This document shows, in pieces, positions 35,925 through 58,243 of a stretch of DNA of 64,000 bases. The notes beneath the pieces are model-generated. The model saw nothing but the letters and a program-made list of their open reading frames with translations. It did not search any database and was not told the origin of the DNA. The position numbers and the translations under genes are program-made. The DNA comes from Eledone cirrhosa (Eukaryota): assembly GCA_964016885.1 (NCBI GenBank), contig OZ024741.1:261950001-262014000 (forward strand). The letters are read 5' to 3'. Within the stretch, counting starts at the first letter, position 1. The number at the start of each line of letters is the position of its first letter.

Positions 35925-36546
35925 TCTATTCTCCGCTAAGTTCCCAGGCAATGCGCGGACACTAAGAACCCATATAAAAATAATTCAGTGGATGGAATAA
36001 AGCTAGCGAGGACTAAATTGGAGTGAAAATTTTAGTAAGTTAATTTTTAAGTTTTAAAATTTTCTTATTTTACGTCTTTCATATAATTGTTCTGCATCCC
36101 CCTGCATAGAACCACAAAGGTAGTAAAACATAACATATATATTTGCTAGCATGGGTTTACATCTGTATACATATGTTGGTAGATATACTAATTCTCTCTC
36201 TCTATATATATATATATATATAACGAAGGAAATGTGGTAAGGAACCAGGTGGACCATAACGCACCAAAGTACTCAATACTTGAGGTAGTAGAGTGGGTAA
36301 TAGGAACCAGTAAGACCCCGACAGCTGAGCTCAAGCCGTTTCGACGGCTAATTCTGTACTGAATGAAAATGTATTCTGGTATTTAAATAGCCGAACTTAG
36401 TCCAGAATTAGCCGTCGAAACGGCTTGAGCTCAGCTGTCGGGGTCTTACTGGTTCCTATATATATATATATATATATATATATATATATATATATATATA
36501 TATATATATATATATATATATATATATATATATAGGAACAAGTAAG

Positions 36547-36640
36547 ACCCCGACGGCTGAGCTCAAGCCGTTTCGACGGCTAATTCTGTACTGAATGAAA
36601 ATTTATTCTGGTATTTAAATAGCCGAACTTATCAAGGGGT
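36547..36640 (-). ncRNA. Hammerhead ribozyme motif, U3-A8 core variant
   Basis: Reverse complement of 37382-37475. Confidence 0.7.
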
Positions 36641-37381
36641 AATTCCATATATGGTCAAAGAGATAATCACCAGGATTGGTCACATCACAAGTTAGTAGTA
36701 AATCTGTGATGGCAAGTTGTGGGTGAAGGGGTAGCTAAACCTGCCGGTAGGAGAAAAAGGGAGATGGGGTGGAGTAGACCCATTCATGCGTTGGTAGTGC
36801 CAGCTACAGCTGGGTGTGAGGTCAAAGAGGATACTGGGGAGGGGGAGGGGGAGGAGGTCGAAACAGTAAGTAGAACAATGAAAGGTAAAACTATAAAAGG
36901 TACTGAGAGAGAAAAAAAGCAAAATCTGGATACTAAGACATAAGTCTCTCGCTATTGCTAGGCTAAAGAAATACATAAATAAATAAATAAACAAATAAGT
37001 GAATAAAAGAATAGATAAATAAATTTAAAAAAAAAAAATATATATATATATATATATAATAGCGAGACACTTGTCTTAGTAACCAGATTTTTCTTTTTTT
37101 TTTCTTTTTTCTCTCTCAGTACCTTTTATAGTTTTACCTTTCATTGTTCTACTTACCGTTTCGACCTCCTCCCCTCCCGCTCCCCAGTATCCTCTTTGAC
37201 CTCACACCCAGCTGTAGCTGGCACTACCAACGCATGAATGGGTCTACTCCACCCCCTCTCCCTTTTTCTCCTACCGGCAGGTTTAGCTAACCCTTCCCCC
37301 ACCAACTTGCCATCACAGATTTACTACTAACTTGTGATGTGACCAATCCTGGTGATTATCTCTTTGACCATATATGGAATT

Positions 37382-37475
37382 ACCCCTTGATAAGTTCGGC
37401 TATTTAAATACCAGAATAAATTTTCATTCAGTACAGAATTAGCCGTCGAAACGGCTTGAGCTCAGCCGTCGGGGT
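37382..37475 (+). ncRNA. Hammerhead ribozyme motif, U3-A8 core variant
   Basis: acccc TTGATAA gttcggcta...tagccgtc GAAA cggct-tgagctc-agccg TC ggggt. All three stems pair and the cleavage triplet is GUC. Confidence 0.72.
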
Positions 37476-39618
37476 CTTACTTGTTCCTATTACCCACTCT
37501 ACTACCCTAAGTATTGAGTACTTTGGTGCGTTATGGTCCACCTGGTTCCTTACCACATTTCCTTCGTTATATATATATATATATATATTTATATATATAT
37601 ATACACACACATATATATATATATATACATGCATATATATATATATATATATCAACTAGAAATTGATTGGAATATAATTAAACATATGAAACAATCACAG
37701 GGGATAATTTGTAAAAGTGTGTAAGCACACATAGTTAGGTAGGTAACTAAATAATTAATTTAATTTAATTCAATTTATCTTAATTTTGGATATATATATA
37801 TATATACACATATGCATATATATATGTATACACACACACACATATATATATATATACATACACACACGTATATATTTTGGTCTTCCAGTTTCATTTCACA
37901 TTATATACATGTCTGTGTATATTTTTATTATTTAAAAATTATTTTTAAGTGAACATGATTTTTTTTTAAATATTTTGAAGTGAACATGACCAGATAGGTT
38001 ACGGGTGGTCTAGTTTCTTCTAATATTTCTCTTTCTATCTTTCGACTAGCGTACGAAACTTTATGATTCTTGTCCTTCTATATCAAATATTAAACTAACA
38101 TATATATCTTAATTGTACTGTATTGTTTTCTTCGTTATTTTCCGTTTACTTTTCACTAGCCAGGGTCGTGTATGCAGTTCGTGTGTATGTGTAAGTATAG
38201 ATAAATAAATAAATAAATATATATATATATATATTTATTTATATATATATATATATATATATGCGCGTGTGTGTGTATGTGTAAGTATAGATAAATAAAT
38301 AAATATATATATATATATATTTATATATATATATATATATATATATATATATATATATATATATATATATATGCGCGTGTGTGTGTGTATGTATGTAAGC
38401 TATAAATTTAGTATAATGTACAACCAGTGATTCCAACTGTTAGCACTATCATATATTTGGGTTTCTATTAATTCCCTAGGGAATTGTTTGACCAAATGCT
38501 TTGCTTAATTGTTTTATTTATTTAAAAAAACATTTTTATTATTTCTCTAAATCTCCAGATATTTTTTGAATGCAAAGCACAGGCCCCTAAAATACTACAG
38601 TTGGAACCTGCAATGCTACCGTGGGCCCCCTGGCAACTCCGCCACTGTATACAAGGTGTAGTTTCCACGAACATTCACTTTTTCTTGCTAAAGTACTCCA
38701 CCCATATTTCAGTTTCGTGATGAAATACGATTACCTCTTCGAGATAGGAGTGTATTTTTCTATAGATTTTTATGTCTAACAAAAATATATAGTTCCGACT
38801 ATTCTACATATATCATTGGCCTAGATTTCCGCCAAAAAAGAGATCCGTTATATTTCATGTTAAGGATTAAGTGGAAGTTATAATTGGTCCAGTAAATCAA
38901 CATTATTAGTCAACATGCACATACAGTCTCAAGTGCCTTAATTGTCTCTTGGTAAAGTACTTCACACAATTTAATTTCCTGATACAATACGATAAACAAC
39001 TTCACAATACTTCATTTCATGGGAGTGTCTTGTTCAATAACATTTCATGGCTAAATAGATCATATAGTTCTGAGAATTTTACAGATTTCATTGGCCTAAG
39101 TTCAAGCCTAGAAAACATCTATTACTATTTTACGTTAATGTTAGTGAACCCGTTTTTTTTTTTATTTGACACTTAACCAGTGTTGCTATTTCATTAACTG
39201 CATTATTAAAATAACAAATCTTACCTAGAGATCTTGTTTATGTCACTGCCTTTTCTAAGATATACACTTTACTGCCCTCGGGACATCTTTAATTATAGAA
39301 TTTTTTTAAATAACTACGCAAGATTTAATGTCTGTTGATATTGGAAAGTAGTCTACAGTACAGCATCGAATTACACTTTAGATTGAATATATGATCATCA
39401 GGAAAAATGAAATGCAGTATCGGACCTGTTTGTTGAAAATATTTGCCCAACACTAGATCGATCAGTATTTCCAATCTTAAAATATATTGTTCCAGCCTTG
39501 TCATCAACATTGTTTTGTGTGACACAGCAAATACTTTCTTATCGTGACCGCTATCAGAAATGTTCTGAAATTGTGATATTACAATTTTCAATCTTTCTAA
39601 GATGTTTCCTCTTCCTGC

Positions 39619-39798
39619 AATAATTGTTTCCACTTTTGGCACAAGGCCATCAAATACCCAGTACATTACTGGTACTTTATTTTATCGACCCCGTAAAGAT
39701 GAAAGGCAAAGTTAACCTCGGCGGGATTTGAACTCAGACCAAAAAAACTATGCTGGAAAGCATGGCGTCCGACCCTCTACCGATACTGCCAATCCACC
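39619..39798 (-). mobile_element. tRNA-derived SINE
   Basis: Same family as 31123-31304. Confidence 0.85.
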
Positions 39799-39799
39799 G

Positions 39800-56820: not shown

Positions 56821-56958
56821 ATATATGATTTGATATATGACATACCTTTACGGTCTTGATATTTCAATTCCAGTATTGGCAGTCAGTATTTTTATACTGC
56901 CAATACGGGAATTGAAATATCAAGACCGTAAAGGTATGTCATATATCAAATCATATAT

Positions 56959-57023
56959 TTTATCTGACGAGGACGTACTGGAAAGAAAAAAAAACACAAT
57001 ACCTTTGAAATATATATAATAAA
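56959..57023 (+). ncRNA. Type I hammerhead ribozyme motif
   Basis: Mirror of 56756-56820; core intact, with three stem II substitutions. Confidence 0.68.
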
Positions 57024-57533
57024 GCATATATTTTGATTATGTGAATATCTTCATTTGTTAATATTTTCAATAATATTAAAACTCCAGGAATATTTCACTG
57101 TTGAGTGCTTTTAATCTATTGTAAAACTGTATTCATTGTGTAATCAATGAGCCATATTAATCTTTGGTCATATATATACATATATATATGTATATATATA
57201 TATATATATGTATATATATATATGTATATATATATATATATATATATATATATATATGTAAGTATGTATGTATACGTACATACATATATGTATACAGACG
57301 TACAGTAGCATGCATATACATATATATATATATATATATATATATATATATATATATATATATATATATATATATATACATACAGGTACACATACATATA
57401 TGTACACATCAGTTTAGCGGACGCTTATTATAGCGCCCGCTTTGTTCGTTTGTAAACAAACTGAACAGCCTGAATTTATGCCGCACGGTGTTACGGCAAA
57501 CACGTCACCTTTTTGTTCAACACTGACACAGGA

Positions 57534-57576
57534 ACGATGTACTAGTTTCAAGCTTGTTAGCTATCATCAGCACCGT
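57534..57576 (-). ncRNA. Minimal hammerhead ribozyme motif
   Basis: Mirror of 57765-57807. Confidence 0.8.
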
Positions 57577-57764
57577 ATACCCATCTGCCAGATAGTTGAA
57601 CGTTCGAAAGTATATACTTTCCTTATGAAAATTAACGGCTGAGCAGCCTAATTTGCATATCGAGTGAGTTAAATCGGTCAGGCGCACCGAAAACGATGAG
57701 TTGTAATAATTTTCATAAGGAAAGTATATACTTTCGAACGTTCAACTATCTGGCAGATGGGTAT

Positions 57765-57807
57765 ACGGTGCTGATGATAGCTAACAAGCTTGAAACTAGT
57801 ACATCGT
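57765..57807 (+). ncRNA. Minimal hammerhead ribozyme motif
   Basis: acggtg CTGATGA t-agct-aaca-agct-t GAAA ctag TA catcgt. Palindromic stem III ACTAGT. Confidence 0.8.
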
Positions 57808-58243
57808 TCCTGTGTCAGTGTTGAACAAAAAGGTGACGTGGTTGCCTTAACACCGTGCGGCATAAATTCAGGCTGTTCAGTTTGTTTACAAACGAACAAA
57901 GCGGGCGCTATAATAAGCGTCCGCTAAACTGATGCGTACATATATGTATGTGTACCTGTATGTATATATATATATATATATATATATATATATATATATA
58001 TATATATATATATATATATATATATATATATATATATATATATATGTAGATAAATCTACCAAGAGTTTACGGTAGTGTCCAATCCGTATGAAGAACTCAA
58101 TGTATTCCGGATATCATGGAAAGAAGAGATGTAATGAAAAATCACTTTCGGTGAAAGATAAACGGTATACAGAGTCAAGATAAAATATTAAACAAATAAT
58201 GAATAAAACAATGAAACAGTTCCTTATATTAAACAAAAAAAAG

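What the first reader, a model, noticed from the sequence alone, without database searches (positions are those of the whole stretch)
36222..57966. All ribozyme palindromes share one polarity: 5' ends joined at the centre, 3' ends pointing out into (TA)n
Seen: five inverted repeats (centres near 37010, 53430, 56889, 57670 and the outer 51640-56395 pair) all have the minus-strand ribozyme on the left arm and the plus-strand ribozyme on the right. Known: inverted pLTR arrangements occur in PLEs. Inference: the self-complementary (TA)n target is primed on both strands and the two cDNAs are joined head-to-head. Read-through RNA would form long dsRNA that sequesters the ribozyme and could feed ADAR editing or small-RNA pathways.
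Basis: partly seen in the sequence, partly recalled or inferred. Interest (0 to 1): 0.75.

Follow-up and report, generated by a model that had tools for sequence, protein, structure and literature searches.

The report
Back-to-back Penelope insertions with lopsided ends
These mirror-image repeats are back-to-back stumps of Penelope-type jumping genes, a layout already described in print; here the two halves almost always end at two different fixed points and often share rare mutations, so both were likely copied from one RNA onto the two cut strands of a TA repeat.

Summary
All five inverted repeats carry a hammerhead motif on the minus strand of the left arm and the plus strand of the right. 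In 118 grid-sampled 10-kb stretches, same-family opposite-strand neighbours were head-to-head in 30 of 34 cases. A paralogous site lacks the 53430 palindrome and reads pure (TA)35.

The polarity is not new: Arkhipova 2013 calls head-to-head the most frequent Penelope-like element (PLE) arrangement, with a tail on one inverted end. The 37010 family has Hydra-clade PLE motifs.

One arm ends short and the other long in 33 of 37 pairs. The arms are staggered rather than nested in 11 of 24 informative pairs. Arms share 16 private variants where under 0.25 are expected.

Best reading (0.6): twin priming from both nicked strands on one RNA. Fold-back or antisense self-priming stays open, because the shared variants lean T>C. 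The dsRNA, ADAR and small-RNA claim is untested. This scan noted the same architecture many times before, in this genome and others.

The parts
36533..36956 (-). 37010 palindrome, left arm: PLE 3' UTR/pLTR, short 3' end at 36533 against (TA)39; hammerhead motif 36547-36640
36957..37057 (-). centre: further 5' element sequence of the left arm, then (TA)10
37058..37569 (+). 37010 palindrome, right arm: hammerhead motif 37382-37475 (U3:A8 variant), 80-nt tail 37490-37569, long 3' end against (TA)10
37401..37430 (+). TATA-like box (37401) and initiator-like A (37430) inside the hammerhead stem II loop; 32 of 56 sampled copies start within 5 nt of this A; likely RNA start (inferred)
   Evidence: initiator consensus recalled
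36221..36458 (.). mini head-to-head unit of the same family (left arm long-ended, minus; right arm short-ended, plus); absent from the paralogous site
53116..53429 (-). 53430 palindrome, left arm with 58-nt tail 53116-53173; hammerhead motif 53329-53373
53431..53686 (+). 53430 palindrome, right arm, short end against (TA)16; hammerhead motif 53487-53531; arms identical over 257 nt; whole unit absent from the paralogous site
56703..56883 (-). 56889 palindrome, left arm, short end; hammerhead motif 56755-56821
56896..57169 (+). 56889 palindrome, right arm with about 93-nt tail; hammerhead motif 56958-57024
57258..57634 (-). 57670 palindrome, left arm, short end at 57258, with an internal (TA)n; hammerhead motif 57534-57576; the family also forms about 520-bp tandem arrays (retrozyme-like)
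57707..57963 (+). 57670 palindrome, right arm; hammerhead motif 57765-57807; broken here at its internal (TA)n, whereas both paralogues run on through the tail to the long end
51588..52684 (-). outer pair, left arm with 54-nt tail 51588-51641; hammerhead motif 51672-51731; interrupted by a nested palindrome at 51955-52374
55830..56392 (+). outer pair, right arm, short end against (TA)14; hammerhead motif 56304-56363
54595..55606 (-). further head-to-head unit, left arm: 242-aa 3' part of a Hydra-type PLE ORF (54878-55606; CxCX5C linker, GIY-YIG) and 3' UTR with a decayed hammerhead
55609..55830 (+). right arm of that unit, ending internally at a short TA run
35248..36205 (.). further head-to-head unit: minus-strand partial tandem 35248-36019 (hammerhead cores at 35924 and 35388) and plus-strand arm 36020-36205 that begins at about the predicted cut site

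Best explanation
Each palindrome is a single insertion of a Penelope-like retroelement (or a non-coding repeat likely moved by one) into (TA)n, likely made when the element's protein nicks both strands and each nick primes reverse transcription of the same RNA, one at a short-end site and one at a long-end site 55-95 nt further 3'. Both cDNAs would run toward the RNA's 5' end, stop at random points or at the likely RNA start, and be joined there. The long-end cDNA would have to displace the short-end cDNA where they overlap. The polarity follows from 3'-first copying on both strands. Shown: polarity, two fixed ends, their pairing, staggered arms, shared variants, one-step arrival at an empty site. 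Inferred: two nicks, sense RNA, one molecule, strand displacement, RNA start.
For: Census: 30 of 34 head-to-head; (TA)n at outer ends only in 65, inner ends only in 9, of 137 inverted repeats, background 14%. Empty paralogous sites for two units. Long+short pairing in 33 of 37 pairs (sample enriched for long ends), and in the grid sample 14 of 17 with no long+long or short+short. In 11 of 24 informative pairs the short-ended arm reaches further 5', so neither arm is nested in the other; two pairs do not overlap at all, the long arm stopping at the short-end site. Arms share subfamily alleles (25 discordant against 73 expected) and 16 private variants in 7 of 20 pairs, under 0.25 expected. 32 of 56 copies start at an initiator-like A 29 nt after a TATA-like box, which points to sense RNA. 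In vitro a PLE protein cuts and extends both strands, starts at two RNA sites that bracket the tail, and is predicted to be a dimer (PMC11167929).
Against: Seven of the 16 shared private variants are T>C in sense and none is A>G (arm-private: 8 of 89 T>C; p = 0.002); rare T>C is twice as frequent as A>G across copies (5.9 against 2.9 per 1000). That fits editing of an antisense template, or one arm copied from an error-bearing first cDNA, better than two passes over sense RNA. Four of the seven come from one nested pair (L147). Shared variants cannot separate one RNA molecule from two RNAs of one source locus, or from later arm-to-arm gene conversion. 13 of 20 pairs share no private variant, and a few pairs differ at recurrent sites. 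Four of 37 pairs break the long+short rule. No strand displacement or two-site priming by one complex has been shown for a PLE in the papers read. The ORF link was tested for one of the five families only.
Confidence: 0.6

Rival explanations
1. Fold-back: one strand (a first cDNA, or an antisense RNA as Arkhipova et al. 2013 proposed) snaps back and primes a copy of itself; the endonuclease then resolves the hairpin with staggered cuts at the short and long ends.
For: Many centres are near-perfect hairpins with short loops; arm alignments abut within -14 to +10 nt in 36 of 37 pairs; shared private variants and their T>C lean, clustered in nested pair L147; proposed in print (PMC3846280). Staggered cutting would also give obligate long+short ends.
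Against: Simple fold-back off the tail-bearing cDNA is excluded by 11 of 24 staggered pairs and two non-overlapping pairs. The rescue needs a 55-95 nt staggered cut that no paper read shows. Both tail boundaries are reverse-transcription start sites on sense RNA in vitro. 5' ends pile up at a sense initiator-like site.
Confidence: 0.25
2. Two separate RNAs, one per subunit of a protein dimer, each primed from one nick.
For: Some arm pairs differ at sites that recur in the family (for example the window's 36221-36458 unit); 13 of 20 pairs share no private variant; predicted dimer.
Against: Arms are more alike than arms from different loci (1.4% against 1.9% for long arms, 4.7% against 10.9% for short arms; 0 of 2000 shuffles as low). 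It gives no reason for strict long+short pairing. It survives only if both RNAs come from the same source locus.
Confidence: 0.1
3. Independent single insertions side by side, with tail-to-tail pairs later purged (for instance because they would cut read-through RNA).
For: Tail-to-tail neighbours do exist (4 of 34; 10 in the family set).
Against: Whole palindromes are absent from empty paralogous sites; arms abut and share private variants; neighbours of different families lean the other way, 22 tail-to-tail against 12 head-to-head; 9 of the 10 tail-to-tail pairs involve an arm of a head-to-head unit.
Confidence: 0.03
4. Assembly or library fold-back artefact.
For: The 53430 arms are identical over 257 nt; raw-read support for the five loci themselves remains open.
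Against: The other arms carry 2-8 substitutions; ends fall at fixed family positions with a one-sided tail; four of the five recur in paralogous copies; the same opposite-strand joints recur in raw reads of three libraries from another study (family level).
Confidence: 0.02

Closest known systems
Endonuclease-positive Penelope-like element insertions with inverted pLTR and one-sided tail (Arkhipova et al. 2013, PMC3846280, passages; Craig et al. 2021, PMC8557442, passages; Schostak et al. 2008, PMC2377424, passages)
   Same: Inverted 5'-truncated copy at the 5' end, head-to-head stated as most frequent, tail on one inverted end, partial tandems, TATA plus initiator-like motif in the pLTR.
   Different: Tails here are 55-95 nt rather than 30-40; no target duplication can be read in (TA)n; the pairing of ends, the stagger and the shared variants are counted here.
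Hydra clade of C-terminal EN+ PLEs (Craig et al. 2021, section 11 read)
   Same: DKT motif, CxCX5C linker, no CCHH, CxxC and CxH around the conserved E and N, hammerhead, (TA)n target.
   Different: Unit is 3.72 kb (described as generally under 3 kb); RWR in place of RWK; very high copy number (at least 1,864 candidates for one family) where the paper found a small number of families; no tree was built.
Poseidon PLE of Anolis in vitro (Frangieh et al. 2024, PMC11167929, main text parts 1-2 of 4)
   Same: Both strands nicked and extended, AT-rich target, two start sites bracketing the tail, ribozyme cut not required.
   Different: Another clade; that work does not pair the two start sites within one insertion or reconstitute inversions; here the ends show 2-4 nt of TA-like match to the target.
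LINE-1 twin priming (recalled, no call)
   Same: Second target strand primes a second cDNA on the same RNA, giving a 5' inversion.
   Different: L1 arms do not overlap and the second site is variable; here the second site is fixed and the arms usually overlap by tens to about 1000 nt.
Metazoan non-LTR retrozymes (bioRxiv 10.64898/2026.07.22.740005, part 1 of 5; PMC4209133, passages)
   Same: Tandem non-coding units with type I hammerheads, argued to be non-autonomous PLE derivatives; hammerhead pairs 100-700 bp apart on opposite strands and the U3-A8 variant were reported in 2014. The 57670 family forms about 520-bp arrays.
   Different: Circular RNA and self-cleavage were not tested here.

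Membership tests
EN+ Penelope-like element (37010 family) | Single ORF with RT and GIY-YIG endonuclease | tested here: met
   L141/L142 frames with YRDD and VIY...YIG, broken by frameshifts; read from motifs, as Pfam gave 0 families for 2 of 2 proteins
EN+ Penelope-like element (37010 family) | Partial tandems forming pLTRs, inverted 5'-truncated copy, tail at one end | tested here: met
   3.72-kb tandem unit, 80-nt tail, 37 head-to-head pairs
EN+ Penelope-like element (other four families) | Linked RT-EN ORF | not tested
   Only hammerhead, tail and (TA)n ends shown; they may be non-autonomous
Hydra clade | DKT motif | tested here: met
   HSDKTG in L141
Hydra clade | CxCX5C linker and no CCHH in the endonuclease | tested here: met
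   CNCPDRSSC in L141 second copy and L142; CSCRKPDEC in window 54878-55606
Hydra clade | CxxC and CxH flanking conserved E and N | tested here: met
   CNLC...E...N...CKH and CSLC...E...N...CPH
Hydra clade | N-terminal RWK motif | tested here: inconclusive
   RWR found
Hydra clade | Placement in the Hydra branch of the RT tree | not tested
   No named reference set fetched; one search returned 6 mostly unnamed relatives
Type I hammerhead ribozyme | Catalytic core and stems I-III | tested here: met
   Descriptor; minimum-energy folds give the three-way shape for 37382 and 56304, stems I and II for 53487 and 57765, and not for 56958; Rfam listed no hammerhead among the 150 of 158 matches shown
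Type I hammerhead ribozyme | Self-cleavage | not testable with these tools
   No clear pile-up of 5' ends at the cut site; minimal PLE hammerheads cut poorly and as dimers (PMC4209133)
Non-LTR retrozyme (57670 family) | Tandem non-coding units each with a type I hammerhead | tested here: met
   About 520-bp arrays on C3
Non-LTR retrozyme (57670 family) | Circular RNA intermediate | not testable with these tools
   No RNA data examined

The most novel reading that the evidence does not exclude
One PLE protein dimer copies one RNA molecule twice, from two fixed start sites and with strand displacement, onto the two nicked strands of (TA)n. This has built some 50,000-110,000 palindromes in this genome, which are a main source of long dsRNA for ADAR hyper-editing in a lineage known for it. 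Head-to-head order means a read-through transcript makes the antisense arm first and so shields itself from the ribozyme in either direction.
Probability: 0.3. Interest if true: 0.65.

Novelty: new member of a known kind. Interest (0 to 1): 0.36.

Why it matters
How PLEs make their tandem and inverted ends is named as an open problem (PMC8557442). The strict long+short pairing, the staggered arms and the shared variants are constraints that an in vitro system now exists to test. At about 25 palindromes per Mb (30 in 1.18 Mb; 51,000-109,000 genome-wide by extrapolation) they could be a large pool of dsRNA substrate: octopus is reported to have exceptional hyper-editing and long-dsRNA potential, and lizard Penelope is heavily edited (PMC5625713). 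The polarity itself is ordinary.

Tried and rejected
Rfam scan gave only sub-threshold microRNA and similar matches to hairpins and TA runs. Pfam found nothing for the ORF pieces. The sequencing-run search listed no RNA holder. Ribozyme-cut RNA as the usual template: no clear pile-up of 5' ends at the cut. Fossil sense A>G editing: 0 flagged among 322 aligned segments, some counted twice; one T>C-rich and one C>T-rich copy. A cap-derived extra G at 5' junctions: seen in some copies but often explained by the other arm; not used. The expected counts used a wrong denominator and were redone. My first reading of 57670 (tail on the left arm) was wrong: the paralogues show left = short, right = long but interrupted. 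Pile-ups at -95 and similar are reference-edge artefacts. The bacterial promoter scan is not suited to this genome. PMC9977147 passages added nothing. The 26036-26513 palindrome occurs only here and in the paralogue, so its polarity cannot be set. One locus duplicating the window's unit (C2:257.74 Mb) was dropped before counting 33 of 37; 2 of 22 pairs were missed by the script.
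Full report
1. Observation. All five inverted repeats are present. A type I hammerhead descriptor finds the motif on the minus strand of each left arm and the plus strand of each right arm. The 37010 family has the U3:A8 core variant, which is described for PLE hammerheads (PMC4209133, passages). On 118 grid-sampled 10-kb stretches of the same genome the descriptor gave 121 hits against 5 in shuffled and 7 in reversed sequence. Arms differ by 8, 0, 5, 3 and 2 substitutions. 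The five belong to five different families.

2. Is the polarity more than chance? With homology added, the sample holds 198 hammerhead copies. Consecutive same-family copies on opposite strands were head-to-head in 30 of 34 cases (p = 6e-6; 13 families). Neighbours of different families went the other way, 12 against 22, as expected if new inserts land in the (TA)n beside older 3' ends. Ignoring ribozymes, 65 of 137 inverted repeats have (TA)n at outer ends only, 9 at inner ends only, 4 at both and 59 at neither; background is 14%. Extrapolated, the genome holds about 76,000 such palindromes (51,000-109,000). The word 'all' is too wide: a tail-to-tail repeat lies around (TA)39 at 36399-36590. 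It results from a mini unit landing beside the older one, and the paralogue lacks that unit.

3. What they are. The 37010 family has at least 1,864 candidate copies. [quoted passage not shown] It carries DKT, CxCX5C, CxxC and CxH motifs and lacks CCHH, the Hydra-clade features in section 11 of PMC8557442. A second Hydra-type ORF end lies at 54878-55606 in another head-to-head unit. Pfam found nothing and no tree was built. The other four families were not linked to an ORF; the 57670 family forms about 520-bp arrays like a retrozyme.

4. They arrive as units. The window lies in a duplicated segment. In the copy at C2:257.75 Mb the site of the 53430 palindrome reads pure (TA)35 between the same flanks, and the 36221-36458 unit is also missing. 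Precise loss between TA runs is not excluded, but identical arms fit a recent gain. In raw RAD reads from another study, opposite-strand joints recur in 3 of 3 libraries, for example 54, 108 and 98 reads at one joint with one start each. The tool does not say which ends meet; I read them as 5'-5' because depth upstream of that point is low. One short-to-long tail-to-tail joint also appears. This is family-level support, and a restriction site lies near the joints. Raw-read support for the five loci themselves remains open.

5. (a) Each family has two fixed 3' ends. In the 37010 family, 106 of 111 arms reach the short or the long end (45 short, 57 long, 4 running on in tandem). Of 37 head-to-head pairs, after dropping one duplicate locus, 33 are long+short, 1 long+long, 1 short+short and 2 other; this set is enriched for long ends. 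In the grid sample 14 of 17 are long+short, none long+long or short+short. Across families, 22 of 30 pairs have one arm ending in (TA)n where the arms part while the other runs on; 2 end alike and 6 are unclear. All five window units fit; 57670 fits by its paralogues. (b) The arm that reaches further 5' is the long-ended one in 13 pairs, the short-ended one in 11, tied in 9. Two pairs do not overlap: the long arm stops at the short-end site. (c) Arms share a template: 25 discordant alleles against 73 expected (partly subfamily structure), and 16 private variants shared in 7 of 20 pairs against under 0.25 expected. (d) 32 of 56 sampled copies begin within 5 nt of an initiator-like A that lies 29 nt after a TATA-like box, about 41 nt before the ribozyme cut rather than at it.

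6. Mechanism. Most likely (0.6) the protein nicks both strands of (TA)n, each nick primes cDNA on the same sense RNA, one at each start site, and the two cDNAs are joined at their far ends. A purified PLE protein cuts and extends both strands, starts at two RNA sites that bracket the tail, and is predicted to be a dimer (PMC11167929, parts 1-2 of 4). Overlapping arms require strand displacement; that PLE RT lacks RNase H and that R2 RT displaces strands is recalled. Against this: 7 of the 16 shared variants are T>C and none A>G (p = 0.002 against arm-private variants), and rare T>C is twice as frequent as A>G. Four of the seven lie in one nested pair. This keeps alive fold-back or antisense self-priming with staggered resolution (0.25). 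Two RNAs from one source locus, or later gene conversion, cannot be excluded (0.1).

7. The dsRNA claim. A transcript across 53170-53690 folds into one hairpin (-462 kcal/mol) that pairs the ribozyme fully. The arms' own promoters point outward, so this needs read-through from outside (inference). In head-to-head order the antisense arm is made first in either direction, which would favour sequestration (inference). No editing or small-RNA data were examined. Among 322 aligned segments none showed clustered sense A>G. Context only: octopus has exceptional hyper-editing and long-dsRNA potential, and lizard Penelope is heavily edited (PMC5625713, passages).

8. Comparison with print. PMC3846280 (passages) states that head-to-head is the most frequently observed arrangement, puts the tail on one inverted pLTR, and proposes self-priming on an antisense template. 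PMC8557442 (passages; section 11) describes the inverted 5'-truncated copy, the one-sided tail and (TA)n targeting, and calls the mechanism undefined. PMC2377424 (passages) shows inverted terminal repeats in Drosophila Penelope. PMC4209133 reports hammerhead pairs on opposite strands 100-700 bp apart. The retrozyme preprint was read in part 1 of 5. Searches listed no paper that counts long+short pairing or tests twin priming for PLEs. The library lacks most subscription papers, the 2005 and 2006 PLE reviews were not read, and the supplements of PMC8557442 and PMC11167929 were not opened and may bear on clade membership and tail ends.

9. Verdict. A real, genome-wide, known architecture in new families. 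The counts sharpen an open mechanistic question but do not settle it. The scan has reported this architecture many times on other DNA. Interest 0.36.

Noticed in passing
window 1-20261: 45-bp tandem array of about 451 copies, GC 54%, strongly C-skewed.
   Followed up: no
window 50001-50752: (TTTTCAT)107 array, 99% pure, also in the paralogue.
   Followed up: no
window 26036-26513: 56-nt inverted repeat around (TA)n that hosts a mini PLE unit; found only here and in the paralogue, polarity unknown.
   Followed up: partly
window 51955-52374: Nested palindrome with no hammerhead detected and an 80-nt tail on the right arm only; a solo tail copy lies at 25924-26006.
   Followed up: partly
window 51150-51213: Solo plus-strand hammerhead copy with a long end; the top-scoring motif without a partner.
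   Followed up: partly
window about 62300-64000: Minus-strand PLE ORF with YRDD and CxCX5C motifs running off the window end, read by eye.
   Followed up: no
window 21348-58037: Region duplicated at C2:257.7 Mb (96-99%) and in part at C2:254.7 Mb beside an assembly gap; segmental duplication or uncollapsed haplotype.
   Followed up: partly
L147 (G000:C1:153125230-153127309): Palindrome whose arms share four private T>C changes, with six more T>C in the one-arm spacer, several in TA context; possible antisense editing or RT wobble errors.
   Followed up: partly
L081 235-3387 and L086 8583-9717: About 310-bp tandem hammerhead arrays (retrozyme-like), one with a head-to-head turn.
   Followed up: no
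window 28000-32950 and 40800-44300: Decayed LINE-type reverse transcriptase fragments and short interspersed repeats, judged by eye.
   Followed up: no
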